Assembly (NCBI GenBank): GCA_018333995.1
Contig: JAGXSG010000008.1
Location: 59,290-123,289, forward strand
DNA length: 64,000 bases
Direction of reading: 5' to 3'
Source of the DNA: Clostridiales bacterium
GTDB taxonomy: Bacteria; Actinomycetota; Coriobacteriia; Anaerosomatales; SLCP01
Under the pieces are notes generated by a model. The model made no database searches and was not told the origin of the DNA. It saw nothing but the letters and a program-made list of their open reading frames with translations. This document shows positions 16,766-30,071 of the stretch, piece after piece. The position numbers and the translations under genes were made by a program. Numbering within the stretch: the stretch's first letter is position 1; every line of letters begins with the position of its first letter.

Positions 16766-17728
16766 GTGGAGCCGCTCATCTCGGTCGTCATCCCCATGCA
16801 CGATGAAGCGGAAAATGCGATCGAGACGCTTACGGCGGTCGGGACAGCTCTGGTCGAGCGCGGGTGGACCTACGAACTCATCCCCGTCGATGACGGCAGT
16901 AACGACGACACAGGCGCGATTCTGAAGGTCGCGGGAGCGGCTGACCACTGCATCCGCCCGATCTCGTATCGTGTGAATCGCGGGCGAGGGTATGCGTTGC
17001 GGCAGGGGTTCGAACGAGCGCGCGGGGAGATCGTCGCGTCGATCGACGCGGACCTGAGCTACACCGTCGATCACCTCGTCCGCATGGTCGACACGCTCCT
17101 CGGCGATCCCGAGGCCGACATCGTGCTGGCGTCGCCGTATATGCCAGGCGGTGCGGTCGAGGGGGTTCCCTTCGCTCGGCTCGCGTTCTCCCGCGTTGGA
17201 AACGCCGTGCTGCGTCAGGCGCTTCCCGAGCGGGTCTATACGAGTACCGGGATTGTGCGCGCGTACCGCAGGGATGCCGTTCGCGCGTTGAATCTTGCTT
17301 CTGACGGCAAAGAGATACACCTTGAGATCCTCTCCGAGGCGATGGCGCTCGGTTACCGGATCGTCGAGATGCCCGCGACCCTCAGGGCTCGCAAGAAGGG
17401 GCGATCAAAGTTTCGTCCCAAGGCGACAGTCGCGAGCCATCTGTTCTTTAGCGTGCTTGCTCGGCCAGCTACTCTCTTTGGCGTCTTCGGGATACTGCTC
17501 CTCTTGGCAGCTGTGGCGGTCGGGTCGTTCCTCCTCGGCGTGTTTCTGTCCGGGGACCTGAACCCGGAGCGTCCGCTCATGACCTTGATGGTGCTTCTCC
17601 TTCTGGGTGGTGCGGGAGCACTCGGGTTTGCGATACTTGCCTCCCAGCTGCTCGAGTTGCGGCGCTCCATCACTCGTCTTCAGGCGGAGGTTCTTCGATT
17701 GCGGGGATCGAACGAAGGGATTCCGTAG
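16766..17728 (+). CDS. GT2 polyprenyl-phosphate glycosyltransferase (DPM1/GtrB/ArnC-like) with two C-terminal TM helices
   Basis: VVIPMHDEAENA, VDDGSNDDT and DAD motifs. C-terminal double TM segment. GTG start. Confidence 0.85.
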   Translation: MEPLISVVIPMHDEAENAIETLTAVGTALVERGWTYELIPVDDGSNDDTGAILKVAGAADHCIRPISYRVNRGRGYALRQGFERARGEIVASIDADLSYTVDHLVRMVDTLLGDPEADIVLASPYMPGGAVEGVPFARLAFSRVGNAVLRQALPERVYTSTGIVRAYRRDAVRALNLASDGKEIHLEILSEAMALGYRIVEMPATLRARKKGRSKFRPKATVASHLFFSVLARPATLFGVFGILLLLAAVAVGSFLLGVFLSGDLNPERPLMTLMVLLLLGGAGALGFAILASQLLELRRSITRLQAEVLRLRGSNEGIP

Positions 17729-17767
17729 CATGGCTCAGCGCGAAGGAAGCCGAGGATAGCGTGCGTG

Positions 17768-19894
17768 TTAGCGATGATCGCAGTCGTGCGCGTACGCAGA
17801 GATGAGCGGTTCTAGAGTGTTTTCCCATGTGAACCTCGCCGCTTGTCGAATCCCGTAGGCAGAGACTTCCTTCGCGAGTTTGGGATCTGACAGCAGGGAT
17901 TCTACGCGCATGGCGAGGGCGTCGATATCTCCCGGCGCGAAGAGGGCTTCGGGATGTACGAACTCGGGAATGGCTCCGACGGCGGCTCCGATGACGGGTG
18001 ATCCAACCGCCGAGGCTTCGAGGGCCACAAGCGAGAATCCTTCAGCGTGCGATGGCACAACGACGATGTCGCTTGTTCTCATGAGGGCCAGCACGTCACT
18101 GTGGGGTAGACGTCCGGTGAAAACCGTGCGCCGAGCGAGTCCGAGTGCGGCAGCTTGCTGGGCGCGTTCCTCTATGCCGCAATCGCCCACCATCGTCAGC
18201 GATACAGGACGAACCCTGGGATCGGCAAGTGCGACGAGCAGATCGGATGCACCCTTCTCGACCGTCATTCGGCCGACGAAAAGGACATGCGGAAGTAGCC
18301 GTGGCTCAGGTGATGGGCGTTTTAGGGAATCAAACACGGCAGCGTCGATTCCGTCGTGCACCACATGGATGCACATAGGCGGTGCTCCCGGAAGTGAGCG
18401 CACATCGTGAGCGATCGCTTCCGAAACACAGATGAGAGGCTCGCACCTGCGCAAAGCGGCGAGGGTTACCATCCGCCAGAAGACGGACTTGTGGGCAAGA
18501 GAGATATCGCTTCCACGCATCGTGAGCGCAGTGCGGATTCGAGGAGCGGCCACTGAGCACACGAGTCCTGTCGGTGCCCACTGCGCATGCAGGATGTCGC
18601 TGTCGCGAGCGGCACGGCGAGCGGCACGAGCCAAACCCGCGACAAAGAATGGCGCCGTCAGCCAGAGGGCGGGAGCTCGGCGGAGAGCGCCCGGAATCCC
18701 GGTTTCTGAGTAGGCGAGACGCTCCCACCGTTGTGGCAGGTAGCGAAAACGGTTGACCTCAACGCCATCCATCTCCTCGACAACCGGCAAGCCCGGTGCG
18801 TGCGGGGCATGCACGCTGACGTTCACGGATTTCCTGACCAGGTGTATGGCCAGCTGGTGAACGATCCTTCCGGTAAAGTCCCCTGAATTGCGTGGGAACA
18901 CTGTTGTGACCAGTGCGACACTCAGCGGTTCCCCGTTGTATGCACGATTCATTCTTCCGTCGGCGACCGGTGATGCTCTTGTTAGAATCAGTGCGGCTCC
19001 CACCAATGCTGGCGTGAGCACCATCCCCAAGTGAACGATGGCTATCTGGGTCGCGGCTTGATCGTCCACTCCCAGACCGACAAGCACGGCGACTAGCGTG
19101 AATTGACTGAGGCCCAATCCGGCAAGTGAAATTGGGAGGAGATTCGCAAGCGTCATGATCGCGCCGCTCATGATCGTGTGCGCGATCGGGATATCTGAGC
19201 CCAGTGAGTGCGCGACCGTGTGGATAGCGGCAAACGACACCAGCCATCCCAGTACGGAGATCGCGACAACCCCCACAAGGCGACTCGGGCGCACGTGCGT
19301 AGCCTCCGCGATCATGCGCGGCGTCACATCAGCCTGCATGCTTCCCACGGCTCTGATGGCGAGGCGCCACGGCACCACAGAGGGCTTGATAATCGGGATC
19401 AACGCCACTATACCTAGCAGGATCGCCAGCGCTCCGACGAGATGAAGACCGCTAGCGAACGCCGAAGGAGCCGCTACGACAGCGAGGGCAGGAAGCGAAG
19501 TAAGCTTGTCGATCATCGTCGCCGGAACCAGGTACTCGGGCTTGCCATGCGTTCGGCACGCGAAGTGAGCTTTGACAAGCTCACCGGTACCACTTGGCAT
19601 CACGAGGGAAGCGGCACTGCCTATGAGGGTGAGGGCAAGTGAATCTGAGCTCGATATGAGTCTCCTGGAACGATTCACGACAAGCGCATAACTCACCGAC
19701 CGCAACATCACCGCCAGCCAGAATACGGCCAGAGCTAACAGTAGCTCGATGAGACTCGTTTGTCTGATCGCGTGACTAAAAGAGCCCCAGTCGACGCGCG
19801 AGACGAGGACCGAGACCAAGAGCATCGAGACTGCGGCTCGCGTCATAAACACGGCGATGTCGCGCGTCCTCGACGGGTTCTCGATGTCCGTCAT
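17768..19894 (-). CDS. fusion protein: N-terminal flippase-like (lysyl-PG synthase TM region/UPF0104-type) multi-TM domain plus C-terminal GT4/GT1 glycosyltransferase
   Basis: About 330 aa with ~8 TM helices, then a GT-B domain with FVGRMTVEKG and SHAEGFSLVALEASAVGSPVIG (EX7E-type). ATG overlaps the upstream stop (ATGA at 19891-19894). Confidence 0.8.
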   Translation of the reverse strand: MTDIENPSRTRDIAVFMTRAAVSMLLVSVLVSRVDWGSFSHAIRQTSLIELLLALAVFWLAVMLRSVSYALVVNRSRRLISSSDSLALTLIGSAASLVMPSGTGELVKAHFACRTHGKPEYLVPATMIDKLTSLPALAVVAAPSAFASGLHLVGALAILLGIVALIPIIKPSVVPWRLAIRAVGSMQADVTPRMIAEATHVRPSRLVGVVAISVLGWLVSFAAIHTVAHSLGSDIPIAHTIMSGAIMTLANLLPISLAGLGLSQFTLVAVLVGLGVDDQAATQIAIVHLGMVLTPALVGAALILTRASPVADGRMNRAYNGEPLSVALVTTVFPRNSGDFTGRIVHQLAIHLVRKSVNVSVHAPHAPGLPVVEEMDGVEVNRFRYLPQRWERLAYSETGIPGALRRAPALWLTAPFFVAGLARAARRAARDSDILHAQWAPTGLVCSVAAPRIRTALTMRGSDISLAHKSVFWRMVTLAALRRCEPLICVSEAIAHDVRSLPGAPPMCIHVVHDGIDAAVFDSLKRPSPEPRLLPHVLFVGRMTVEKGASDLLVALADPRVRPVSLTMVGDCGIEERAQQAAALGLARRTVFTGRLPHSDVLALMRTSDIVVVPSHAEGFSLVALEASAVGSPVIGAAVGAIPEFVHPEALFAPGDIDALAMRVESLLSDPKLAKEVSAYGIRQAARFTWENTLEPLISAYAHDCDHR

Positions 19895-22218
19895 CTCGAC
19901 TCCAGCGCGTGAGAGAACACCGCTTGTACCAGCTCTTGTTGAAATGGATCCTGGTTCACCGCGGCATGCCAGACCAGGTTGTAGCCTATGAAGTAGACGC
20001 GTCCTTCGCCCACGGTCAACATGCTTACAAGTGGTTTGCCGTCAGCGGTCGCCAACACCTCGGGGGAGTATGAGCTAGGAAGTGGCTCATAGGCCGCTCC
20101 ATACCAAGCACCTCCGGCCTCATCGACGAATTGAATCGAGGCACCCAACGTCGCAGAGTCTTCAACGGCTAGCGAAGGCAAAATCCGCACTCTCGCCTCT
20201 CTCGCCAGAGCTTCGCGTCTGACGGTCATGCCAAAGATGGCTGTGTCCCTGATCTGATACGACAGATCGCCCAGGTTGCCGGAAGCGTCGAGGATGAGCG
20301 TCCCGCCGTCCTCCACGTATTCGCGGAGGATTTGCTCACCACGTGCGCGGTCACGCCACTTCACTCCGAAGAGAGCTACGACATCGTATTCCTGCAGCTC
20401 GGTGAGGGTCGGGTCGTCTATAAACGCCGTGCCTTCCCATCCGTAGCGCCCCATGTCGAAATCGAGGTAGTACCGGTATTCCGTGAGTTCTTCAAGATAG
20501 CGCTCCCATCCCACGCCAAGGTAGAGGATCCTTGGTCGTGACGGCGCGGAATCTTGTGTGCGTTTTAGCACGCGAACCGTGTCGACCCCTTCGACCTCGA
20601 CTCTTCGTATCTCAGAGAATCCAGCGAAGTCTTGGCCCTTAAGGGTTACGTAGTAGTCCGCTGCGGATTTGTCGAGCTGATGCCGGAAAGCGTCCGGATC
20701 TCTGAAAAAGGGCATCGCACGCGCTGGGAGCCTTCCATCCCATGCTGTCATCGGCCACAGATCGGAGTAGATGACACTCCCCTCATTCGCCCCCGAAGCG
20801 AGCAACGACTCCGCAGTGGAGCGTGATGCCGCTACATATGGGTTCGGGGATTCGGGGATCCGCTGCATGACGACGGCAAGCGAGATGCATGACACGCTCA
20901 CAAGCAAGACGGTGGTTGCGGTACCGAGCGCTCGAGATGAACGTTCGCCCAACGACCCTAAGATCCGTCCTGACTCCCCGGTGAGATTATGTATACCGCG
21001 GTGCCAGCCGAGGATGGTCAGGAAGATGATCGTGGGTGCCATCATTATAAAGTATCGAGAAACCTGGATGTTCTGATGGCCATGGAAATCCAGATAGCAC
21101 AGTAGCCATGTAAGCAGAGTAGCGTCGAGTGCACCAGCACTGGAAACGCGCCCGTCTTCGGCGCGCGGTCCCAGCTGACTCCAGACCGCAATGACGGCTA
21201 TGACGATACTCACCTGCCGTGGAATCAGACCCGCATCGAGAACCTGCGCCAAGACTGCCGACGTGACGCCGAGGACGGCGATCATCAAGGGGGCGATTCT
21301 TAGCGGACTTCTCCGGAAGTACGTTGAGACCGAGGTCAACAGCCCCACCGCCCCTCCGAGGAGGACCAGGACCGGTATCAGGGTGACGGAATCATGGCCG
21401 AGGAACCGAGTCACGTTCTCCGCGTACCAGACGGCGTTTGCCGCCGCGGGCTCGCCGACGCCTGGGGCGCTCACGGACTCAGCCACCTGAAACGCGATCG
21501 CGAACGGGAAGAGGCTGTCACCGAAGCGTGATGCGTAAAACAGTCCCGCAGGCAGATACGTCACCACGGCGACACCGATAGCATGGGTCAGCATGCGCGC
21601 CTGAACGAAAGGACGCCACCTTAGCATCAGCCATGCGAAGGCGGGAATGGCAACAAGTATGGCCGTGTACCGAGTCATCACAGCGATCACGTATAACGCC
21701 GCCGCAATAAGGTAGTAACGTGGATCGTCGTCGGCCGCACGAATGAGAGCCAGTAGCATCCACAGCCCGATGGCCACAGAGGGAAAATCCGTATAGCCGC
21801 TGCCTAGATACTCCCAGAGAGGGGTCACGGACAGGACCATCGGGACCACCGCGATGGCGATTTTGCTATCTGTGCGGCGTCTCACGAGGAGATACAGCGC
21901 TACCACTCCCGATATCGAGAGCGCGCCATCGATCCACTGGATGACCGATTCATGCATTGGTGCACCGAGGCTAAACGCGAGCGCGGTAAGCAGCGACAAG
22001 AAGGGGGGTCGATGAAGTTCAGAGTACCCAAAGCCCGACTGTGCGAACTCCGCCGCGTTACAGAGGAACGCATACGTGTCCCACCCTGGCCCAGACAAGA
22101 TCGCATGAGGGAGCCTGTAGGCTACGACCATCGTCGTGATCGCAAAGACCAGTCCTACCTGGAACAACGCCGCGCGTCGGTGCTGCTTGGGGACGACGGC
22201 AGTTCCTCCCACCCTCAT
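19891..22218 (-). CDS. large polytopic membrane protein, GT-C/ArnT-PMT-like N-terminus plus ~320-aa extracytoplasmic C-terminal domain
   Basis: About 12 predicted TM helices followed by a soluble domain. ATG 22218 sits 1 nt after the GT2 stop (TAA 22220-22222). The ORF-track start at 22248 is TTG. Position and size match the membrane protein I recall accompanying XrtG-type exosortases. Confidence 0.6.
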   Translation of the reverse strand: MRVGGTAVVPKQHRRAALFQVGLVFAITTMVVAYRLPHAILSGPGWDTYAFLCNAAEFAQSGFGYSELHRPPFLSLLTALAFSLGAPMHESVIQWIDGALSISGVVALYLLVRRRTDSKIAIAVVPMVLSVTPLWEYLGSGYTDFPSVAIGLWMLLALIRAADDDPRYYLIAAALYVIAVMTRYTAILVAIPAFAWLMLRWRPFVQARMLTHAIGVAVVTYLPAGLFYASRFGDSLFPFAIAFQVAESVSAPGVGEPAAANAVWYAENVTRFLGHDSVTLIPVLVLLGGAVGLLTSVSTYFRRSPLRIAPLMIAVLGVTSAVLAQVLDAGLIPRQVSIVIAVIAVWSQLGPRAEDGRVSSAGALDATLLTWLLCYLDFHGHQNIQVSRYFIMMAPTIIFLTILGWHRGIHNLTGESGRILGSLGERSSRALGTATTVLLVSVSCISLAVVMQRIPESPNPYVAASRSTAESLLASGANEGSVIYSDLWPMTAWDGRLPARAMPFFRDPDAFRHQLDKSAADYYVTLKGQDFAGFSEIRRVEVEGVDTVRVLKRTQDSAPSRPRILYLGVGWERYLEELTEYRYYLDFDMGRYGWEGTAFIDDPTLTELQEYDVVALFGVKWRDRARGEQILREYVEDGGTLILDASGNLGDLSYQIRDTAIFGMTVRREALAREARVRILPSLAVEDSATLGASIQFVDEAGGAWYGAAYEPLPSSYSPEVLATADGKPLVSMLTVGEGRVYFIGYNLVWHAAVNQDPFQQELVQAVFSHALESR

Positions 22219-22219
22219 C

Positions 22220-23788
22220 TTATGCCGATCGCTTCCACAGTGCCTCAAGACGCCCAGCCAGTACGATGACGGTGACCAGAAGCGGACCCAGCACGGAGAG
22301 CGTCACTCTGCCCATGCGCAGTACCGCGGTGGTAAGCGAGCTGGCCACCATCGTGACGAACTCGATCGAGCGCACACGCATGAGACGAAGTCCGTCCTGC
22401 ATTCCGCCAACCGGTCCTTGGATGGTCCATTGTGGCTCCTCCATGAGAGTGACGAGGAAGCCCGAAAAACGGAAGTGAAACACGATGAATCTGAAGAGAG
22501 GCAAGAACAGCAGCGTCCACCCGCACTGTTCGATGCGTCCGCGCGTATGCTCGTCGGACATTGCGAACACGGTTGTGGTGTTGACGGCCTCGATCGCAAC
22601 GTAGAACGCGTACATCCCTGCGAGCGCCATGCCGATGACACTCCAGGAGTACCCAAACATCGGAAAGAAGAGGATGAGTGGTGCCCAGATGAGTCGCGGG
22701 AACGCGAGCGTGTGGTCGAGCAAGAGCGTCTTCGGGAGAGAGCGTCGCGAGAAGGCACCATGCTTGTGCGTGCCAATGATCTCCTCGTGCAAACCGCAGA
22801 CCTCGAGTTGGCCGCGCGTCCAACGGGCGCGTTGCGCGTACAGTTCGTCCCAGGTCACCACTGGTTCCAGGTAGATCTTCGCGTCCTCGGCAAAGCCAAT
22901 GGTGACGTTGTTTCGATGAAGTGCGAACGTCAGGCACGTGTCCTCTGAGACTGTGGTGTTCGAGTAGCATGGTCCGCAGGGGAGAATGTCGCGCCGGAAC
23001 GCCGAGCACGCGCCCGCGAGTGTGAACATGGTTCCGGTGAGCGCTTGTGCCCGGCGGCCGAGGTCAAAAGAAGATAGAAACTCCAGGAACTGCGCCTTTG
23101 CGAGGAATCGTTCCATCGCCGTCAGAGTGCGGGGCACTATGTGGCCCTCTTCGTCGAGCACCAGACGGCCGTGTTCATCACGAGACTCGAGAACGTCCCA
23201 GTCTATTTCGATGCTTCCTGTCAGTGCGCCGAGCTTCGGATCGCGCACGAACGCCGCCGCGATATTGCGTATCGCCATCGGATGGAGCACGACGTCGCTA
23301 TCGATGTTGATGACTATCTCTCCCGAGCTCGCGTCGATGCCCGCGTTGAGCGCTTCGGACTTGCCGCCGCGCTGGCGCCGGATAAGGGTGATGGTGCCGC
23401 GGAATGGGCCCACTCGGATAGCTCGCCCGCGCAGGCGGAACGCGTCACCGTTCTCGGTGCTTCCGCCGTTGGCGTGGTGCTCTACCCGTTCCGGCGTGCC
23501 GTCGTCACTTCCATCATCAACGACGATGACCTCGAACTTCTCGTGCGGGTAGGCCTGTGCTTTGATCGAGGTTAGGCAACGGTCAATGACAGCGGCTTCG
23601 TTGTACGCCGGGACGATCAGCGAGACTGTCGGCAACTCGTCGTCGGGCACTTCTCGGCGGCGGGCAAGACCTCGTTCACGTGTCTTGACCACCACCAAGC
23701 GGCTAACGGCGTCCACCCCGTCGATGAGCACCGGCGTTATCAGCCACACGCCCCAGACGAGCATGAACACTAGGAGGCTGTCCATCAT
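22220..23788 (-). CDS. processive GT2 glycosyltransferase (PgaC/cellulose-synthase-like)
   Basis: LIVPAYNEA, VVDDGSDDGT, DSD and QRARWTRGQ (Q-x-x-RW) motifs flanked by TM helices. ATG 23788 follows GGAGG and overlaps the upstream TGA. The ORF-track start at 24385 is an artefactual extension. Confidence 0.87.
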   Translation of the reverse strand: MMDSLLVFMLVWGVWLITPVLIDGVDAVSRLVVVKTRERGLARRREVPDDELPTVSLIVPAYNEAAVIDRCLTSIKAQAYPHEKFEVIVVDDGSDDGTPERVEHHANGGSTENGDAFRLRGRAIRVGPFRGTITLIRRQRGGKSEALNAGIDASSGEIVINIDSDVVLHPMAIRNIAAAFVRDPKLGALTGSIEIDWDVLESRDEHGRLVLDEEGHIVPRTLTAMERFLAKAQFLEFLSSFDLGRRAQALTGTMFTLAGACSAFRRDILPCGPCYSNTTVSEDTCLTFALHRNNVTIGFAEDAKIYLEPVVTWDELYAQRARWTRGQLEVCGLHEEIIGTHKHGAFSRRSLPKTLLLDHTLAFPRLIWAPLILFFPMFGYSWSVIGMALAGMYAFYVAIEAVNTTTVFAMSDEHTRGRIEQCGWTLLFLPLFRFIVFHFRFSGFLVTLMEEPQWTIQGPVGGMQDGLRLMRVRSIEFVTMVASSLTTAVLRMGRVTLSVLGPLLVTVIVLAGRLEALWKRSA

Positions 23789-24378
23789 GCCTCCTTGAGG
23801 TTGCCTGAGACGATCGTGATCGTCGGCCGCGTCACAAGGAACCAGTAGATCGCCACGGTGGCGGCGAAGAAGAACAACCGTCCAAACACGGCGTGCGCCG
23901 GATACACCCACGAGGTGCCGAGTGCGTTGATGATGCCCACGATTAGCAGGATGCGCAGGAGATTGACCACCCACGTCGCGGCCACGCCCGCGAGCACCAT
24001 CCAGAGCTTGTTCCCCGGCCGGAACGCTGGGTAGAACGCCACAAGCGCGGTGAACGCGAGCGTCTCGAGCAGAGCCGAGCACTCGATGCCGATGTCGAAG
24101 ATCGCCCAACCCGTGTGGTTTGGGATGGCGAGTCCCGAGGTGCCGAGATGGGAGAGTTCGATTCCGAGCAGTCCCGCAAGGGCGATCACCTGCTGTGCCT
24201 GTGCGTACTCCACAGCGGTGTCGAGTCCGAAGGTTCGAAGTGCAGAGATGCCGAGTAGCACGAAGCCGAGTGCGCCCGTGATGTAGAAGACCAGCCAGTG
24301 ACGAGTGCTCCAGAGCCGCCAGGTGAGCAGCGCCCACACGGCGGTCGCGAACAGGAGCATGTAGGGCGACATGATCAT
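23785..24378 (-). CDS. exosortase/archaeosortase-family transpeptidase-like membrane protein (XrtG-like by size and neighbourhood)
   Basis: 197 aa, ~6 TM helices. Carries the family's Cys/Arg/His triad in its usual contexts: DIGIECSALLE, NLLRILLIV, YPAHAVFGRLFF. ATG 24378 overlaps the TGA of the surface-protein gene. Confidence 0.72.
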   Translation of the reverse strand: MIMSPYMLLFATAVWALLTWRLWSTRHWLVFYITGALGFVLLGISALRTFGLDTAVEYAQAQQVIALAGLLGIELSHLGTSGLAIPNHTGWAIFDIGIECSALLETLAFTALVAFYPAFRPGNKLWMVLAGVAATWVVNLLRILLIVGIINALGTSWVYPAHAVFGRLFFFAATVAIYWFLVTRPTITIVSGNLKEA

Positions 24379-26939
24379 GGCGCACTTGCCTTCGCGAGCG
24401 CCGGTGTCATCCGGTGCCGGGAGTGCCACATGAAGACGACTCCGATGAGCAACGTGAGAGCGAAAAGGGGCCAGCCCAGTGCGGGAATCGAGTAGAACTC
24501 TGTCGTCCGGGTGTCGATCAGCATGCCCGACGTGGTCCTCCACGTGGCTGTGACCCGGTAGGTTCCTTGGTTGGGAAATCCAGTGTTGGAGATAGCCCAG
24601 GGCTGCGGCTCGGTCCACGTGGCACCGGCAGGCACCGTGATGCCGGTTGTCGTGCGCGTGCTCACTGGCGCCGAGCCGTCGTAGACACGACTCGCGCCAG
24701 AGGAGTCGATGAAGAGGTCTCCAGCTCCGAACACGCCGTTTCCGTCGGTGTCCCACCAGATGACGTACGTCATCGTCGAACCTGAGATCGACTGGGCACC
24801 GTTGTTGGCGGCTGTCGATGAGACGTGCACCATGTCTCCCAAACCCGGCGCATTGCTAGCGCTCAGGGACGTGATACGGGCTGCTGGCGACACGTTAAAG
24901 GTGACCCGCGTGATCTCGGCGTTGTTTGAGGAGTTGAGGAGCACAAGGTTCCATGTGCCATGCGTGGCATCCGCTGGCAGCGTGTAAAAGCTGTGCGCTG
25001 TCTGCAAGGTGTTGACGCCCACGGGGAGCGAGGTGTGGACGACTGTGCCGCTCGCGTTGATCCAGCGGAAGCGTACCTGTGAAAAGCCGGTGAGTCCCAT
25101 GCCACGCGCGTACACGGTGTCGCCTGGGTTGAAATTCGTGGCCACACTGCCGAAGCCGGGGCCATCGTACGTAGCAAGCCTGCGCACCCGTGTGGTGTCG
25201 GTCACGGACGCCGAGAATGATCCGTGTGAGGCGGTCACCGTCATGATGTCGGTCGCGGCTTCACTCGCTCCCGCAGGTATCTGCACTCGGGCCACGATGT
25301 CGACGCTCGCGCCGTACGGTCCGAGCGTCACCGAGCTGATCGGAGTCACTCCGTCAGCCGCAAAAAGGCTCACCGGCCAGCCCGAGGAAGACCGTACGGA
25401 GAGGTTGATTGAGCGGGCGGCCGCGGCGTTGTTCGTGACGCGGTGCGTGTAGGAAACGGCTGTGCCAGGACCGCCGACGGACTCGAGATTAGGCGTGATC
25501 TCCAACTCGGGGCGTACGGTTGTGGCGTCCTGGGCCGCACCGAGGATCGTCGGGTCTGTGGCCAGGACAGCCCGTACCGCGGTGACATCCTGAGTACCAT
25601 GAGCCGTCCCAGCCGGGACGCGCACCCGTGCGACCACGTCGACCGAGGCGCCCGCGGCAAGGGTGAGTGAGTTGACTGGGGTGATAGCGTCTGAGAGGTA
25701 GAGCTCGACCGGCCAGCCGAGTGACGAGGTTGCGGAGAGGTTCACGACCGCCGAAGCACCGGTGTTGTTCGCGACGGTGTGCCTGTAGTCGATCGCCGCT
25801 CCGGAGTGGATCGAAGCGGAGTGGTTCGGCGTGAGGGTAAGTGCGCCCGCGACAGTGTGGGCTGTGGCGCGCGCGACGACGCTGGCGTGCGTGGTCGATG
25901 TCACAGCGAGTGCCGTCGTTGCGGCGACACCTTGTGCGGTGCCCAACGGGATCGCGACGCGCAAATTGACGGGTACCGAACTTCCCGGGGCAAGTGTCAC
26001 GGAAGTCGCGGGTGCCCCAGCCACCCACGTGCTCGCGTTCCATCCAGCCAGAGAGGATGTTCCAAGCGTATACGTCTGCGGAAGGTTGCCGCTGTTGGTG
26101 ATGGTGTACGAGTGAGTGACGACCGTGCCAGGCACCCCGCCTGCGGTCGTGAGCGCTGGTGAGAGCGACACAGCGGGTCGTGCGAAGGAAAGCCCTCCGC
26201 TCGGACCGGCGTTGTCCTCGATGTGTGTGGGTGATTGCGATCCATTGCCCACCGCGAACTGGATCGAGATCGGGCTGCCAGCGGGCACTCCCAGCGCGGC
26301 CCACGAGACAGACGCCTCGAATCGCAGGCCCGAGCTGTCCATAGCGCCACTGTATACGGCACCGGGCACACGGTTCTGGCCTGGACGGGCTTGGCCCGGC
26401 ATCGTGTGGCCGTCACCGCGCATCACGTCGCTAGATGAAGAGTTGTGGGCACTGTAGTAGACGACGTTACTCGAATTAGGATTCGGCTGGTAACCAGAGT
26501 TGGAGAATCCCATGATGGCGACGACATCACCGCTGCGCATGACGCCGTCGCCGTCGCGGTCGATGTAGGCGAACATCGTGACAGCACGGGTCCCTGAGGT
26601 GGTGCGGCGCCAGAACAAGTACAGATTCTGCTCGTCCCACGTGGCAGCCGTGAGATCCAAGTCGCGGTCAGGTTGGTCCGGAGTGTCCGGATCCCCAGGT
26701 CCGGTGGTGTCGAGGACGGCGTTGTCCGCGTCGAGGAACACGCCGTCCCAATCGGTCATGGTGCCGTCGATGGTGATACGCGCTGAAGTGAGGGCTTGGG
26801 ATCCGGTGGGTGCGAGCAGGAAGGATATCAACAGCAACGCTGTGAGCGCGCACGTTGTGATAGAGCGAGGGCGTGTGCGACGTATCGCGGACTCTGTTCG
26901 CCCCAAGTGCTCGCGAGCATGCGTGGATGAGCCGTTCAT
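24375..26939 (-). CDS. 854-aa secreted repeat-rich surface protein with a C-terminal hydrophobic/basic anchor
   Basis: Signal peptide ALTALLLISFLLAPTGSQA. At least three ~105-aa repeats of a DUF11/NEW3/CARDB-like module (Y.H.V.N....[ST].L...S..GW...L......I..V.L....S..V..RV..P.G). C-terminus IPALGWPLFALTLLIGVVFMWHSRHR. Confidence 0.8.
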   Translation of the reverse strand: MNGSSTHAREHLGRTESAIRRTRPRSITTCALTALLLISFLLAPTGSQALTSARITIDGTMTDWDGVFLDADNAVLDTTGPGDPDTPDQPDRDLDLTAATWDEQNLYLFWRRTTSGTRAVTMFAYIDRDGDGVMRSGDVVAIMGFSNSGYQPNPNSSNVVYYSAHNSSSSDVMRGDGHTMPGQARPGQNRVPGAVYSGAMDSSGLRFEASVSWAALGVPAGSPISIQFAVGNGSQSPTHIEDNAGPSGGLSFARPAVSLSPALTTAGGVPGTVVTHSYTITNSGNLPQTYTLGTSSLAGWNASTWVAGAPATSVTLAPGSSVPVNLRVAIPLGTAQGVAATTALAVTSTTHASVVARATAHTVAGALTLTPNHSASIHSGAAIDYRHTVANNTGASAVVNLSATSSLGWPVELYLSDAITPVNSLTLAAGASVDVVARVRVPAGTAHGTQDVTAVRAVLATDPTILGAAQDATTVRPELEITPNLESVGGPGTAVSYTHRVTNNAAAARSINLSVRSSSGWPVSLFAADGVTPISSVTLGPYGASVDIVARVQIPAGASEAATDIMTVTASHGSFSASVTDTTRVRRLATYDGPGFGSVATNFNPGDTVYARGMGLTGFSQVRFRWINASGTVVHTSLPVGVNTLQTAHSFYTLPADATHGTWNLVLLNSSNNAEITRVTFNVSPAARITSLSASNAPGLGDMVHVSSTAANNGAQSISGSTMTYVIWWDTDGNGVFGAGDLFIDSSGASRVYDGSAPVSTRTTTGITVPAGATWTEPQPWAISNTGFPNQGTYRVTATWRTTSGMLIDTRTTEFYSIPALGWPLFALTLLIGVVFMWHSRHRMTPALAKASAP

Positions 26940-27246: not shown

Positions 27247-28005
27247 GTGGCGGTGGCAATGACTGATCAAGTCGGTGTACTCGTCATCGACGACGACGAG
27301 TCGATCGTCGAGATGATCCGGATGGGCCTTGAAGCCGATGGCATGCGTGTCTTTTCGGCAGGTGACGGCGCGGAAGGCATCGAGGTCCTCAACCGGGAGC
27401 TCATCGACGTTGTCGTGCTCGATATCATGATGCCGCGGGTCGATGGCTGGATGGCGCTCATGGAGATCCGCAACAACCCCGCAACTGCCGACACGCCTGT
27501 GATCATGCTTACGGCCAAGACTCAGGACCTCGCGAAGATCCTCGCGTTCAAGCAGGGCGTGCAGCAGTACGTCACCAAACCGTTCAACATTCTCGAGCTG
27601 TCCGCGCGCGTAGAGTCGCTGGCGAAGGGCCGCCGTAGACAGGTCCGCGACGCAGGGCGGGGCGGTGAGGGCGATTTTCGCAAACTCGCTGTGCGCAAGG
27701 GTGGACGGACGGTGCTGCTTTCGATCGACGATGTCGTCTTCCTTTCGGCTCGCAATAAGTCCACGTACGCGCACACGTTCGAAAACCAGTACCTCGTGGA
27801 CATGACGCTTGGCGAGCTTGAAGCGCGGATTGGCCCAGACGCGTTTGTACGGGTGCATCGCAGCTACATGGTGAACCTCAACAAGATCAAAGAGATCGTG
27901 CGGGCCGAGGGTGCGTACGTGGTAATCGCGACAGATCGTGATGAGACGCAGATTCCGGTGGCGAGGCGGCAGGTGCGCCAGTTCCGTGAGGCGGTAGGGA
28001 TTTGA
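27247..28005 (+). CDS. LytTR-family DNA-binding response regulator (no adjacent histidine kinase)
   Basis: Receiver domain (VLVIDDDES, VVVLDIMMPRVDG, MLTAK) plus C-terminal LytTR domain (LLSIDDVVFLSA...FVRVHRSYMVNLNKIKEI). Start may be ATG 27259. Confidence 0.88.
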   Translation: MAVAMTDQVGVLVIDDDESIVEMIRMGLEADGMRVFSAGDGAEGIEVLNRELIDVVVLDIMMPRVDGWMALMEIRNNPATADTPVIMLTAKTQDLAKILAFKQGVQQYVTKPFNILELSARVESLAKGRRRQVRDAGRGGEGDFRKLAVRKGGRTVLLSIDDVVFLSARNKSTYAHTFENQYLVDMTLGELEARIGPDAFVRVHRSYMVNLNKIKEIVRAEGAYVVIATDRDETQIPVARRQVRQFREAVGI

Positions 28006-29057
28006 TGGGTGCTCATGGTTCGCGTCGATTGGTGGTCGCGTGTGTCGCCGCGGTCCTGTGTGCGGCAGCGCTCGTCCCGGGCTCCGCGTACGCCGAGCGG
28101 ACGATCGCGCTCAGCACCGGTACGGTGGAGCTCTCACTTGCGCCAGGAGGTTCAGCGTCCGAGACGATCAGCGTCGCGAACACGGGCACTGAGCCGCTCA
28201 AGGCGTTGCTCTACACGAGCGACGTCACTTACGACGCACAAGGGCAGCCAACGTACGTGCGGCCGACCGGCGAAGCGGGAGAGTTCTTGCGCAGTCCGGC
28301 GTCGTGGATGGTGGTGCGTGCGCCGGACATGACGAAGATCATCGCCAACACTCCGTACATCGAGCTTGAGCCCGGACAGGAGATCGAGGTCGATTTCGAC
28401 CTCACCGTTCCTGCCAACGCCGCCCCGGGCGACTACAACGCGATCATCTTCTTTGAAATGTTTGAAACGGCAGGCACCGAGGGCACGGCGTCTCGCATCT
28501 CCGGGCGGATCGGTGCTCGTGTGGTACTGCGCGTGATAGGCGACATCGTCGACCGGATCGATGTGGCGCCGTTCTCGGCGCGCTCGTTTGTGATCGGTGA
28601 CGTGATTCCGTACTCGTTCCGCGTGGTCAACGAGGGAAACATAGACAAGCGCTACGTCCCGGAACTCGTCGTGCTCGATGGTAGCGAGGCCGAGCGCATG
28701 CGCTCGGTTGTGGAGACGGAGGCGATCGTCTACGCGCAAGGCCAGCGTGAGTACGTGGGCGGGCTCGCGCTGGAAAATGCGGGCTTTGGCAGGTTTACGC
28801 TCCGGGTCGAGATCGCGCATGAGCGGGATACCGGAGACGCGGGGGCGGTGGTGTCAGAACGCCTGCACAAGGACCGGACATTCTTTGTCATTCCGCTGTG
28901 GTTTGCGATCGCAGTCATCCTTGGAGTCGGATTTCCGCTCCTGTGGCTGTCGTGGCGCGCGAGTGTGAACAGCGCCGCACGCAAGCAGGTGGCACGGGAG
29001 CAAGTACGCTCCGAGAAGCGTCAACGCTTGGCCGAGGAGCGCGAGCAGTCGTTGTAG
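28005..29057 (+). CDS. secreted, C-terminally TM-anchored surface protein, DUF916/DUF3324-like
   Basis: ATG overlaps the regulator stop (TGATG). Signal peptide ...VPGSAYA. PGDYNAIIFFE-type motif. C-terminal FFVIPLWFAIAVILGVGFPLLWLSWR TM segment followed by a charged tail. Confidence 0.5.
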   Translation: MGAHGSRRLVVACVAAVLCAAALVPGSAYAERTIALSTGTVELSLAPGGSASETISVANTGTEPLKALLYTSDVTYDAQGQPTYVRPTGEAGEFLRSPASWMVVRAPDMTKIIANTPYIELEPGQEIEVDFDLTVPANAAPGDYNAIIFFEMFETAGTEGTASRISGRIGARVVLRVIGDIVDRIDVAPFSARSFVIGDVIPYSFRVVNEGNIDKRYVPELVVLDGSEAERMRSVVETEAIVYAQGQREYVGGLALENAGFGRFTLRVEIAHERDTGDAGAVVSERLHKDRTFFVIPLWFAIAVILGVGFPLLWLSWRASVNSAARKQVAREQVRSEKRQRLAEEREQSL

Positions 29058-29079: not shown

Positions 29080-29394
29080 CTACCTCGGAGTGACCGGCAC
29101 GAGGGTGTACTCGGTGAGGTCTCCGGTTTCCACGAGCGCGCCCGCAGCGCCTGTACTCCCTCCGCTCGCGTAGACGATCTCTGTTGAGCCGCACGCCGCT
29201 CGTGCGATGCCGGTAAGTTCCCACTGGGTGTTGGAGCGGATCACGAGTCCGTTATCGACGGAAGTGGCGCTCACGATCGGTGCCATTTCGAACGATACCG
29301 AGACGCCGGTGCCGACCGCGAACCGAGGAAGCGCGAGCGCGCTAATGACGAGGGCCGTGGCCGCCGTCACTCCAATCACACGTCCCGCTCTCAC
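29080..29394 (-). CDS. small secreted protein, WxL-like (RSNTQWEL motif)
   Basis: GTG 29394 is 6 nt after AGGAGG. Signal-like N-terminus VIGVTAATALVISALALP. Shares the L.(V/I)RSN..W.(L/F) motif with the 143-aa neighbour. Confidence 0.45.
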   Translation of the reverse strand: MRAGRVIGVTAATALVISALALPRFAVGTGVSVSFEMAPIVSATSVDNGLVIRSNTQWELTGIARAACGSTEIVYASGGSTGAAGALVETGDLTEYTLVPVTPR

Positions 29395-29455
29395 CGGTGC
29401 ACCTCCTGTCAGCGGTTCTGACAGGTAGATCGGAGACGAAAGGCTACAATAGTGT

Positions 29456-29514
29456 GACGAACGGCCTCTATGGAGGGACAAACGGACGAACGGTTGCAGA
29501 AGGGCGACGAATGG
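29456..29514 (+). promoter_or_regulatory. four 9-bp boxes forming two 21-bp-phased pairs (candidate LytTR operator)
   Basis: GACGAACGG 29456-29464, GACAAACGG 29477-29485, GACGAACGG 29485-29493, GACGAATGG 29506-29514. They lie 62-120 bp upstream of the minus-strand gene starting at 29394 and read CCGTTCGTC in the gene direction. Confidence 0.5.
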
Positions 29515-29639: not shown

Positions 29640-30071
29640 CTAGTTCTGGACGGCGGTGTAGACGTAGGTCGCCGTGTAGGCACCGACAGGCAGTGAGTAC
29701 GCGGCGTCGCTACCCAGGTTGAGCGTGTAGCTCGTGGTGATCGGAGTCACTCCGCGGGTCTGCAAGCCGTTTGCGACGCTGACAGTGTCGCTCATGAAGG
29801 TACCGAACAGCGCATTCGAATAGACCGGGGTCTGCTGGGTGAAGGTCCACGGCATGTTAGAACGTACACGCAGGGACGAGCCCACAGTGGCGACGGGGGT
29901 TGTGAGCGGATCTGCTGTGAGGGTGAGAGCGGCCGGTCCTTGAAGCGTGAATTCGAACGCGGGGGTGACGTTAGCGGTTACCACGACGGTACGGTCGGTA
30001 GCGAGAGCGAATCCCACGACGCCGAACGTCAGGGCCGCGATCACGATTGCGATCATGGCGGTCCTCTTCAT
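29640..30071 (-). CDS. small secreted protein, WxL-like (RSNMPWTF motif)
   Basis: ATG preceded by GAGGAGG. Signal peptide MKRTAMIAIVIAALTFGVVGFALA. All-beta-looking, T/V/A-rich. C-terminus YTATYVYTAVQN. Confidence 0.55.
   Translation of the reverse strand: MKRTAMIAIVIAALTFGVVGFALATDRTVVVTANVTPAFEFTLQGPAALTLTADPLTTPVATVGSSLRVRSNMPWTFTQQTPVYSNALFGTFMSDTVSVANGLQTRGVTPITTSYTLNLGSDAAYSLPVGAYTATYVYTAVQN

What the first reader, a model, noticed from the sequence alone, without database searches (positions are those of the whole stretch)
16766..26939. Exosortase-family (XrtG-like) operon expanded with a giant surface protein and a flippase-GT1 fusion
Seen: five minus-strand genes are translationally coupled.
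- ATGA overlaps at 24375-24378 and 19891-19894.
- TGA/ATG overlap at 23785-23788.
- A 1-nt gap at 22218-22220.

Operon order:
- 854-aa repeat surface protein.
- 197-aa polytopic protein with the Cys/Arg/His exosortase triad (IECSALLE, NLLRIL, PAHAVFGR).
- Processive GT2 (QRARW).
- ~775-aa GT-C-like membrane protein.
- Flippase-like/GT4 fusion.

A convergent polyprenyl-phosphate GT2 sits at 16766-17728.

Established, from memory of TIGRFAMs (TIGR03110-03112): the Gram-positive exosortase XrtG occurs with a GT2 and a large membrane protein described as 6-pyruvoyl-tetrahydropterin-synthase-related. No sorting-signal substrate has been assigned to it.

Inference: this locus has that core plus a co-transcribed secreted protein with a C-terminal hydrophobic/basic tail. 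That protein would be the first obvious candidate substrate. The glycosyltransferases could build the glycan acceptor.
Basis: partly seen in the sequence, partly recalled or inferred. Interest (0 to 1): 0.72.

Follow-up and report, generated by a model that had tools for sequence, protein, structure and literature searches.

The report
Actinobacterial XrtG-type exosortase with dedicated cargo
This is a Coriobacteriia version of the already catalogued Gram-positive "XrtG" surface-protein sorting operon; its substrate carries a previously uncatalogued C-terminal signal (FYSIPxLGWP + membrane helix + Arg cluster), and in a sister lineage the substrate is fused to the sorting enzyme.

Summary
Five minus-strand genes (26939 to 17768) are joined by three ATGA overlaps and one 1-nt gap, and every domain call was confirmed by HMMs.

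The 197-aa protein is an exosortase-family member:
- It passes the TIGR04178 signature.
- Cys100, Arg142 and His162 are invariant.
- Its best subfamily is XrtG, but below NCBI's cutoff.

Canonical Firmicutes XrtG operons already have an assigned substrate. It is the Firmicu-CTERM protein (TIGR04145), encoded directly upstream of xrtG in the same gene order. So the surface protein is not an "expansion" and not the "first candidate substrate".

What appears new:
- A Coriobacteriia/Actinomycetota clade (window plus 18 species-level genomes) conserves the core: cargo, Xrt, processive GT2, GT-C membrane protein.
- Each locus has exactly one tail motif, F-[YF]-S-[IV]-P-x-[LMVF]-G, always at the Xrt gene. 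No curated sorting-domain model matches it at threshold.
- In 5 of 18 genomes, and in 4 further metagenome proteins, the cargo is fused in frame to Xrt. The cargo's own helix and basic cluster are replaced by Xrt TM1 and its RxRR loop.

This strongly links cargo and enzyme. Cleavage and the acceptor remain inferred. Verdict: a new variant of a known kind.

The parts
24375..26939 (-). Cargo: 854-aa secreted protein made of beta-sandwich repeats. It has an N-terminal signal peptide, an N-terminal 'ITIDGxxxDW' domain, Ig-like repeats and a conserved last domain of about 130 aa.
   Evidence: ORF. Pfam hits FixG_C, NPCBM_assoc, DUF7507 and MG2. Hydrophobic segments at residues 27-45 and 818-836. 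The C-terminal module is conserved in 18 of 18 loci.
26793..26939 (-). Predicted Sec signal peptide, roughly residues 1-49: RRTRPR, then a hydrophobic core, then SQA|LT.
   Evidence: Read from the translation and hydropathy. No dedicated signal-peptide predictor was available.
24378..24497 (-). C-terminal tripartite sorting-signal candidate. Motif FYSIPALGWP (residues 815-824, nt 24468-24497), hydrophobic helix LFALTLLIGVVFMW, then the basic cluster HSRHR.
   Evidence: The motif occurs once per locus in 19 of 19 loci, always at Xrt. Conservation profile. Five of five genuine metagenome matches are followed by Xrt. No curated CTERM model reaches its cutoff.
23785..24378 (-). XrtG-like exosortase of 197 aa with 5 hydrophobic segments. 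Catalytic candidates are Cys100 (nt 24079-24081), Arg142 (nt 23953-23955) and His162 (nt 23893-23895).
   Evidence: TIGR04178 at 53.1 bits against a cutoff of 23; best subfamily TIGR03110 at 76.2 bits. E99, C100, E105, N139, R142, H162, G166 and R167 are invariant across 28 clade members plus 3 annotated XrtG proteins.
22220..23788 (-). Processive-type membrane GT2 of 522 aa with the motifs DDGS, DSD, SED and QRARW.
   Evidence: PF00535 at 106 bits. Best NCBIfam hit is TIGR03111, the XrtG-associated GT, at 259.8 bits (below its cutoff); next is PgaC/IcaA. Present in 18 of 18 loci at 50-88% identity.
19891..22218 (-). GT-C-like polytopic membrane protein of 775 aa with a large C-terminal soluble domain, of the PTPS-related type.
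   Evidence: PMT_2 at 52.5 bits over residues 70-223. PF10131 PTPS_related at 29.8 bits over residues 598-751. Present in 18 of 18 loci.
17768..19894 (-). Accessory gene: a flippase-like (LPG_synthase_TM) domain fused to a GT4 glycosyltransferase, 708 aa.
   Evidence: PF03706 at 103.7 bits (residues 19-298), plus PF13439 and PF00534. The same fusion is a single ORF in L015 and L022. Elsewhere the TM domain stands alone or is absent.
16766..17728 (+). Accessory gene: a GT2 of the polyprenyl-phosphate type, 320 aa with two C-terminal TM segments, convergent with the operon.
   Evidence: PF00535. Best NCBIfam hits are ArnC (72.5 bits) and AglJ (69.5 bits), all below cutoff. TM segments at residues 243-261 and 274-292. 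Found at 59-87% identity in 7 loci, next to an LPG_synthase_TM match in each.
27247..28005 (+). Divergent LytTR-family response regulator, a possible regulator of the operon.
   Evidence: Response_reg plus LytTR. Found next to the cargo gene at 75-76% identity in L009, L011 and L013.

Best explanation
The locus is a chromosomal, Coriobacteriia-lineage version of the XrtG-type exosortase system, with a dedicated one-to-one cargo.

Shown by tool results:
- A conserved four-gene core: cargo, Xrt, processive GT2, GT-C/PTPS-related membrane protein.
- An intact Cys100/Arg142/His162 triad.
- A cargo tail made of an invariant motif, F-[YF]-S-[IV]-P-x-[LMVF]-G (here FYSIPALGWP), then a hydrophobic helix, then an Arg-rich cluster.
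- Strict co-location of that tail with Xrt.
- A sister clade in which the cargo ectodomain and motif are fused in frame to Xrt.

Inferred mechanism:
1. The 854-aa protein is exported by Sec and held in the membrane by its C-terminal helix, with the basic cluster in the cytoplasm.
2. Xrt is a five-helix protein with its N-terminus outside. Its three catalytic residues lie near the outer membrane face. It recognises the motif just outside the membrane.
3. Cys100 attacks the motif and releases the helix and basic stub.
4. The acyl-enzyme is resolved onto an acceptor. The acceptor is unknown; the always-co-inherited GT2 and GT-C suggest a glycan or glycolipid that they make.

The accessory genes plausibly supply a lipid-linked sugar that the GT-C uses outside the cell. 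These are the polyprenyl-phosphate GT2, the flippase-like domain and the GT4. The logic is that of three-component systems such as GtrB/GtrA/GtrV or CsbB/GtcA/YfhO. The target could be the cargo or the polymer.
For: - HMM identities.
- Triad invariant across 31 sequences, including 3 RefSeq-annotated XrtG proteins.
- Same gene order as annotated XrtG/Firmicu-CTERM operons; PMC12854382.
- Core conserved in 18 of 18 species-level genomes.
- Motif present exactly once per locus in 19 of 19 loci. It ends 0 to about 130 nt before Xrt in the 14 unfused loci, and is absent elsewhere in the 64-kb window and in the flanks of up to 10 kb.
- Five of five genuine motif hits in a metagenome-wide DNA scan are followed immediately by Xrt. 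The other 14 hits are chance matches outside real ORFs.
- In-frame cargo-Xrt fusions in L018, L020, L021, L023 and L024, and independently in P0124, P0125, P0126 and P0128. All keep ECS, NxxR and AHAV and form one clade.
- In the fusions the motif is followed by a short linker and Xrt TM1 plus an R-rich loop. This reproduces the motif, helix, basic-cluster layout and fits an N-out topology.
- Conservation drops from above 90% in the motif to composition-only conservation in the helix.
Against: - No experiment exists for any XrtG-type system. Even the Firmicu-CTERM/XrtG pairing is a computational assignment.
- The roughly 130-aa domain before the motif is also well conserved. Motif conservation could therefore partly reflect fold: 'FF' extends the last beta-strand in the AlphaFold model.
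- The tail was seen only on orthologous cargo, never on unrelated proteins, so it is not shown to be a portable signal.
- The fusion proves a functional link, not cleavage. A fused cargo could simply use Xrt as its anchor.
- Only up to 10 kb per genome was inspected, so distant additional substrates are not excluded.
- AlphaFold gave low confidence (pLDDT about 58-62) for the motif and linker, so there is no docking support.
- Scores fall below NCBI's XrtG and TIGR03111 cutoffs.
Confidence: 0.7

Rival explanations
1. The tail is only a membrane anchor. The surface protein stays tethered by its C-terminal helix. Xrt and the two glycosyltransferases act on something else, for example exopolysaccharide export or modification. 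Adjacency and fusion then reflect a structural complex or co-assembly, not an enzyme-substrate pair.
For: - The fusion clade shows that the cargo can be permanently joined to a membrane protein.
- The motif continues the last beta-strand of a conserved domain.
- No cleavage data exist.
- The GT2 is PgaC/BcsA-like, consistent with a polysaccharide role of its own.
Against: - The catalytic triad is invariant in both unfused and fused forms, which implies a peptide substrate.
- The motif, helix, basic-cluster layout is that of known exosortase, archaeosortase and sortase signals.
- The tail gives sub-threshold hits only to CTERM sorting-domain models.
- The canonical XrtG cassette has a curated sorting-domain protein in the same position.
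Confidence: 0.15
2. Xrt's main substrates lie elsewhere in the genome, as a many-to-one system like PEP-CTERM/XrtA. The adjacent protein is just one of several, or a co-regulated neighbour.
For: Only up to 10 kb around each Xrt and 64 kb of this genome were examined. Many exosortases serve dozens of targets; this last point is from my own knowledge of PEP-CTERM systems.
Against: - A metagenome-wide scan for the motif DNA found genuine instances only directly upstream of Xrt, five of five.
- There is no second motif in the window or in any locus.
- Translational coupling and fusion point to a dedicated pair.
Confidence: 0.08
3. The operon is mainly a protein O-glycosylation or S-layer-like glycoprotein system. 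The GT-C (PMT_2) glycosylates the cargo using lipid-linked sugar from the accessory GT2 and flippase. Xrt acts only as a maturation protease with no transfer to an acceptor.
For: - PMT_2 hit.
- A polyprenyl-phosphate-type GT2 and a flippase-like domain recur with the core.
- The cargo is Ser/Thr-rich.
Against: The accessory module is absent from about half of the loci, whereas the GT2 synthase and GT-C are universal. This reading does not conflict with cleavage by Xrt; it differs from the best explanation only in the fate of the acyl-enzyme.
Confidence: 0.07

Closest known systems
XrtG / Firmicu-CTERM system of Bacillota (NCBIfam TIGR03110, TIGR04145, TIGR03111, TIGR03766; Pfam PF10131)
   Same: - Gene order is the same: cargo, xrt, GT2, large membrane GT-like protein.
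- The best-scoring HMMs for Xrt and the GT2 are the XrtG ones.
- Invariant ECS...NxxR...H..GR.
- Xrt is small, about 200 aa.
- There is one adjacent cargo.
- The cargo N-domain starts with the same short 'I-T/V-I-D-G-x-x-x-D-W' motif that opens the TIGR04145 model.
   Different: - Only 21-26% identity to annotated XrtG, and scores fall below the curated cutoffs.
- The host is Coriobacteriia/Actinomycetota, with about 63% GC.
- The tail motif is FYSIPxLGWP, whereas the four tails read from canonical-type loci (L005, L006, L007, L026) are Gly/Ser/Thr-rich.
- TIGR04145 does not match the window cargo.
- The cargo is large (about 850-1700 aa) with Ig-like repeats.
- There is no QueD-like 6-carboxytetrahydropterin synthase gene, which is present in all 3 canonical loci.
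- A cargo-enzyme fusion clade exists.
ArtA / PGF-CTERM (archaeosortase A processing of the Haloferax S-layer glycoprotein)
   Same: - Same enzyme superfamily (TIGR04178).
- Tripartite C-terminal signal with a Pro/Gly-containing motif next to the helix.
- The cargo is a large surface glycoprotein-like protein, and glycosylation genes lie nearby. This comparison rests on my own knowledge of the ArtA literature.
   Different: ArtA serves many PGF-CTERM proteins and is not operon-linked to its cargo. It attaches a lipid. ArtC and ArtF models score only about 20 bits here.
IPTL-CTERM (TIGR04174) and other curated exosortase-type sorting domains
   Same: The fused-clade motif SVPTLGEWG resembles IPTLxxWG. 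L021 gives a weak hit to model positions 1-8 (10.3 bits, E 0.66). The helix and basic parts give sub-threshold hits to JDVT-, MYXO-, PGAP-, PFE-CTERM and LPXTG models.
   Different: None reaches its cutoff. The window tail itself matches none of them.
Sortase A / LPXTG
   Same: Functional analogy only: a Cys transpeptidase that cleaves a motif preceding a helix and a basic tail, then transfers the cargo to a cell-envelope acceptor.
   Different: Unrelated fold and topology. The LPXTG_anchor model gives only sub-threshold hits through the helix.

Membership tests
Exosortase/archaeosortase superfamily | Matches the family signature HMM (TIGR04178) above its curated cutoff | tested here: met
   53.1 bits against a cutoff of 23, residues 95-182. 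Pfam PF09721 scores only 20.4 bits against 25.7.
Exosortase/archaeosortase superfamily | Conserved Cys, Arg and His catalytic candidates in a polytopic membrane protein | tested here: met
   C100, R142 and H162 are invariant in 31 sequences. Five hydrophobic segments.
XrtG (TIGR03110) | Scores at or above the curated cutoff of the XrtG model | tested here: not met
   76.2 bits against 102.75. XrtG is nevertheless the top subfamily; the next, XrtX, scores 24.6 bits. JGI annotates many clade members as XrtG. NCBI calls this exact protein 'hypothetical'.
XrtG system | Adjacent TIGR03111-family GT2 downstream | tested here: inconclusive
   TIGR03111 is the best hit at 259.8 bits but falls below its cutoff of 363.95. 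tblastn of this GT2 picks up annotated TIGR03111 genes next to xrtG at about 28% identity.
XrtG system | Large PTPS-related (PF10131) or TIGR03766 membrane protein in the operon | tested here: met
   PF10131 at 29.8 bits against 26.4, covering only the C-terminal 143 of 621 model positions. The N-terminus is PMT_2. Pairwise BLAST to the L. eligens protein is not significant.
XrtG system | Cargo carries the Firmicu-CTERM domain (TIGR04145) | tested here: not met
   No hit for the window cargo or its tail. Positive controls score 94 and 154 bits. Relatives' N-domains give only E 0.026-2.7 over model positions 1-16.
XrtG system | Gene order cargo, xrt, GT2, membrane GT | tested here: met
   Window compared with L006 and L007.
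C-terminal tripartite sorting signal (PEP-CTERM/PGF-CTERM type) | Signature motif, then a TM helix, then a basic cluster at the extreme C-terminus | tested here: met
   The motif lies 34-44 residues from the stop in the 14 unfused loci. A hydrophobic stretch and R/K/H cluster follow.
C-terminal tripartite sorting signal (PEP-CTERM/PGF-CTERM type) | Co-occurrence of the signal with its sorting enzyme | tested here: met
   19 of 19 genome loci and 5 of 5 genuine metagenome hits. Whole-genome counts could not be made.
C-terminal tripartite sorting signal (PEP-CTERM/PGF-CTERM type) | Signal found on otherwise unrelated proteins (portability) | tested here: inconclusive
   N-terminal regions vary: an ITIDG domain, SdrD_B/CLIPPER repeats in L001, and a different N-domain in the fusion clade. 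The last roughly 130-aa domain always accompanies the tail.
C-terminal tripartite sorting signal (PEP-CTERM/PGF-CTERM type) | Proteolytic removal of the tail by the enzyme | not testable with these tools
   Needs mass spectrometry or genetics.
Processive membrane GT2 synthases (BcsA/PgaC/NodC type) | D, DxD, (S/T)ED and Q(R/Q)xRW motifs plus C-terminal TM segments | tested here: met
   DDGS, DSD, SED and QRARW are read in the translation. TM segments at residues 371-402 and 492-510. PgaC_IcaA scores 129 bits, far below its equivalog cutoff.

The most novel reading that the evidence does not exclude
The Coriobacteriia clade defines a new exosortase sorting signal, an 'FYSIPxLGWP-CTERM'. Its sister fusion clade would be a naturally self-contained, cis-acting (autoprocessing, possibly single-turnover) cargo-exosortase polypeptide. 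If the fused enzyme cleaves its own motif and hands the ectodomain to a product of the co-inherited GT2 and GT-C, it would be a minimal system for finding what exosortases attach their cargo to. To my knowledge that question is still open for the bacterial family.
Probability: 0.3. Interest if true: 0.8.

Novelty: new variant of a known kind. Interest (0 to 1): 0.58.

Why it matters
To my knowledge, exosortases are widespread but biochemically almost uncharacterised. Neither the cleavage site nor the acceptor is established for the bacterial enzymes.

A strictly one-cargo, operon-encoded system gives an unusually clean enzyme-substrate pair to test. This one has a sharply defined motif. It also has a natural cargo-enzyme fusion, so one polypeptide would carry both substrate and enzyme.

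It also extends the XrtG-type system from Bacillota to Actinomycetota. In addition, it flags proteins that NCBI currently labels 'hypothetical' or only 'archaeosortase/exosortase family protein', and a sorting tail that no curated model recognises.

Tried and rejected
- A homologue search with the cargo's last 261 aa returned only 3 fragments, not even the window protein itself. It could not be used to count cargo proteins.
- tblastn of a Firmicu-CTERM protein against plasmids found only itself. No Firmicu-CTERM alignment could be built for a profile-profile test.
- An HMM of the Coriobacteriia N-domain run against 3 canonical-locus upstream proteins (two annotated Firmicu-CTERM, L006 and L007, and the hypothetical protein of L005) matched only the 12-residue ITIDGxxxDW start, at 6.5 bits. 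TIGR04145 gave E 0.026-2.7 on the same stretch. Homology of the cargo domains is left open.
- AlphaFold2 of the fused protein P0124 was meant to show whether the motif docks on the active site. The Xrt domain was confident (pLDDT above 90) but the motif and linker were not (58-62). The tool gives no contacts.
- PDB searches by sequence and by fold found no solved exosortase relative. Only generic Ig-like hits appeared.
- The promoter scan found 0 sigma-70-like sites, and terminator-like sites were no more frequent than in shuffles. This was uninformative for this high-GC organism.
- Pairwise BLAST of the GT-C against the L. eligens PTPS-related protein was not significant.
- I considered and rejected a mobile-element or plasmid origin. 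The flanks are housekeeping genes (glutamate-synthase-like oxidoreductase, DUF711, PGA_cap, V-ATPase) and are syntenic with other MAGs.
- I considered an assembly artefact for the fusions and rejected it. There are nine independent sequences from ENA, Logan, JGI and GenBank, 55-75% identical, forming one clade.

Full report
**1. Observation**

Reading the junctions directly shows three things:
- ATGA overlaps at 24375-24378, 23785-23788 and 19891-19894.
- A TAA-g-ATG junction with a 1-nt gap at 22219.
- The strings IECSALLE, NLLRIL, PAHAVFGR and QRARW in the translations.

The 197-aa start at 24378 is supported because about 200-aa homologues align from 'MI.SP'. The locus sits between housekeeping genes: a glutamate-synthase-like oxidoreductase on one side, and DUF711, PGA_cap and V-ATPase on the other. 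These flanks are syntenic with related MAGs. The locus is therefore chromosomal and not on a mobile element.

**2. Gene identities**

| Gene | Coordinates | Main HMM results |
|---|---|---|
| Xrt, 197 aa | 23785-24378(-) | TIGR04178 signature 53.1 bits (cutoff 23); best subfamily TIGR03110 XrtG 76.2 bits (cutoff 102.75); next subfamily about 25 bits |
| GT2, 522 aa | 22220-23788(-) | PF00535; best NCBIfam hit TIGR03111 (XrtG-associated GT) 259.8 bits (cutoff 363.95); then PgaC/IcaA |
| GT-C-like, 775 aa | 19891-22218(-) | PMT_2; C-terminal part of PF10131 'PTPS_related' 29.8 bits (cutoff 26.4) |
| Fusion, 708 aa | 17768-19894(-) | LPG_synthase_TM (flippase-like) plus GT4 |
| GT2, 320 aa | 16766-17728(+) | ArnC/AglJ-like, with two C-terminal TM segments |
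| Cargo, 854 aa | 24375-26939(-) | Ig-like beta-sandwich hits (FixG_C, NPCBM_assoc, DUF7507, MG2) |

The GT2 carries the motifs DDGS, DSD, SED and QRARW. The cargo has a signal-peptide-like N-terminus and one C-terminal helix followed by HSRHR.

**3. Source organism and public annotation**

The exact Xrt protein is in GenBank as 'hypothetical protein KGZ40_02645 [Clostridiales bacterium]', on a 384-kb MAG contig. About 135 homologues come almost entirely from Coriobacteriia/Actinomycetota MAGs. JGI labels many of them 'exosortase family protein XrtG'. NCBI labels them 'hypothetical' or 'archaeosortase/exosortase family protein'.

In an alignment of 28 clade members plus three RefSeq-annotated XrtG proteins, E99, C100, E105, N139, R142, H162, G166 and R167 are invariant. 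Identity to canonical XrtG is 21-26%.

**4. What is already known**

That premise is out of date.

- tblastn of the GT2 against plasmids found annotated XrtG operons in Aneurinibacillus, Lachnospira eligens and Lactococcus lactis.
[quoted passage not shown] A 6-carboxytetrahydropterin synthase comes next. The last gene is a PTPS-related protein or the TIGR03766 XrtG-associated GT. The Aneurinibacillus locus has a hypothetical protein upstream of xrtG and the 6-carboxytetrahydropterin synthase gene further upstream.
- TIGR04145 hits those upstream proteins at 94 and 154 bits.
- A 2026 paper describes the same 'complete Exosortase G system' in L. plantarum (PMC12854382).

So the position and role of the window's first gene are standard for the cassette.

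**5. What differs**

TIGR04145 does not hit the window cargo or its tail. The four tails read from canonical-type loci (L005, L006, L007, L026) are Gly/Ser/Thr-rich before the helix and end in Lys/Arg runs. The window's tail reads TTEFYSIPALGWP-LFALTLLIGVVFMW-HSRHR.

The cargo N-domain begins 'ITIDGTMTDW', the same short motif that opens the Firmicu-CTERM model. The similarity does not extend further:
- BLAST E 0.033.
- HMM score 6.5 bits.
- TIGR04145 E 0.026-2.7 over model positions 1-16 for relatives.

Cargo homology is therefore unresolved.

**6. Comparative evidence for the enzyme-substrate pair**

*Context look-ups.* Four of four loci showed a large protein (863-1673 aa), then Xrt, GT2 and PMT_2.

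*Scan of one genome per GTDB species.* It gave 18 Coriobacteriia-type loci plus one canonical-type Oscillospiraceae locus.
- tblastn finds the cargo C-module, Xrt, GT2 and GT-C in 18 of 18.
- The regex [FLY][FY]S[IV]Px[LIVMF]G occurs exactly once per locus in 19 of 19 (window included). It is always at Xrt and never elsewhere in the window or the flanks.
- In the 14 unfused loci the motif lies 34-44 residues from the stop, and the stop lies 0 to about 130 nt from the Xrt start. Most junctions are 4-nt overlaps.

*Alignment of the C-module.* The motif is above 90% conserved. After it, only hydrophobicity and an Arg-rich cluster are conserved.

*Metagenome-wide DNA scan for the motif.* It gave 19 hits. 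Five are genuine, with the Ig domain upstream and helix plus Arg cluster downstream, and all five are followed at once by Xrt. The other 14 are chance matches outside real ORFs.

*Curated CTERM models.* None reaches its cutoff. The tails give only sub-threshold hits to JDVT-, MYXO-, GVDTG-, PGAP- and PFE-CTERM, LPXTG and IPTL-CTERM.

**7. Cargo-enzyme fusions**

In L018, L020, L021, L023 and L024 there is no stop between the cargo and Xrt. A single frame of 890-1209 codons runs from a signal peptide through the Ig-like repeats. It continues into '...TTQFFSVPT[LVF]GE[WI]', a linker of about 10-15 residues, and then Xrt TM1 followed by 'R(S/R)RRW'.

- The cargo's own helix and basic cluster are gone. 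Xrt TM1 and its conserved cytoplasmic RxRR loop occupy that place.
- This fits a simple hydropathy and positive-inside reading of Xrt: five helices, N-terminus outside, and Cys, Arg and His near the outer face.
- Fused proteins also occur in independent ENA, Logan and JGI data: P0124, P0125, P0126 and P0128.
- All fused forms keep the triad. In a neighbour-joining tree they form one clade, sister to the unfused clade.
- This suggests a single old fusion that has been maintained, not an assembly error.
- In L027 the upstream part of the cargo gene is split into three ORFs, probably by long-read indels. The Ig domain, motif and Xrt part is still one ORF there.

**8. Accessory genes**

- The GT2-320 occurs at 59-87% identity in seven loci, next to an LPG_synthase_TM match in each. 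An eighth locus, L014, has the TM match at its contig end.
- The LPG_synthase_TM-GT4 fusion seen in the window recurs as one ORF in L015 and L022.
- About half of the loci lack these genes within the stretch seen, so they are accessory.
- By analogy with established three-component extracytoplasmic glycosylation systems, they probably feed the GT-C. Those systems use a polyprenyl-phosphate GT2, a small flippase and a GT-C transferase. This is inference.
- A LytTR response regulator and a 351-aa beta-sandwich protein with a C-terminal helix lie divergently upstream. They recur in L009 and L013, and the regulator alone recurs in L011.

**9. Structure**

No PDB relative was found by sequence or by fold. 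AlphaFold2 of fused P0124 models the Xrt domain confidently (pLDDT above 90). The motif and linker reach only 58-62, so the model says nothing about docking.

**10. Verdict**

- The XrtG-like identity is right.
- The candidate-substrate idea is right, and is now much better supported.
- The novelty claim is wrong, because the cassette architecture with an upstream sorting-signal protein is already curated for XrtG.

The following were not found in NCBIfam 20.0 or in the searchable literature:
- An Actinomycetota clade that falls below the XrtG cutoffs.
- Its distinct tail motif.
- The natural cargo-exosortase fusion.

Cleavage, the cleavage site and the acceptor remain inferred.

Noticed in passing
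L018:6956-10585, L020:716-4270, L021:7037-10558, L023:6977-10600, L024:7868-10543; proteins P0124, P0125, P0126, P0128: In a sister clade the surface protein and the exosortase form one reading frame. The motif FFSVPT[LVF]GE is joined by a short linker to Xrt TM1, and the cargo's own helix and basic tail are lost.
   Followed up: yes
window 27247-29057 (+), 29080-29481 (-), 29640-30071 (-): A LytTR response regulator is translationally coupled to a 351-aa beta-sandwich protein with a signal peptide and a C-terminal helix. Two small ORFs without family hits lie beyond; the 143-aa one has a hydrophobic, signal-like N-terminus. The regulator and the 351-aa protein recur next to the cargo gene in L009 and L013. 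They may be a regulatory or second surface module.
   Followed up: partly
L007:3953-5638 (Lactococcus lactis pBV60): The canonical XrtG operon on this conjugative plasmid is directly preceded by a diguanylate cyclase gene and an EAL-domain gene. This suggests c-di-GMP control of the XrtG/GT2 system in Bacillota. No such genes flank the window operon.
   Followed up: no
L005:4952-5614, L006:9514-9978, L007:8302-8679: All three canonical XrtG loci carry a small 6-carboxytetrahydropterin synthase (QueD-like) gene. No such domain appears in the six window proteins or among the Pfam calls for L001-L004.
   Followed up: partly
window as a whole; protein P0001: The identical Xrt protein is deposited under a MAG labelled 'Clostridiales bacterium'. 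All close relatives are Coriobacteriia/Actinomycetota MAGs and the window has about 63% GC, so the taxonomic label looks wrong. Two GTDB representatives labelled 'Eubacteriales' (L009, L020) look similarly mislabelled.
   Followed up: partly
L027:6140-9086: The cargo gene is called as three consecutive ORFs of 355, 240 and 361 aa on an ENA long-read-style contig. These are probably indel frameshifts. The last ORF still spans the Ig domain, the motif and Xrt.
   Followed up: partly
window 18001-22000: GC content dips to 0.59-0.60 over the GT-C and flippase-GT4 genes, against 0.61-0.66 in the flanking windows. GC skew is near zero there.
   Followed up: no
L001:4983-10004 (= L011): In one species the cargo is 1673 aa with SdrD_B and CLIPPER/DUF11-type repeats in place of the ITIDG N-domain, yet it ends in the same last domain and FYSIPALGWP tail. 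The N-terminal part of the cargo is therefore modular.
   Followed up: partly
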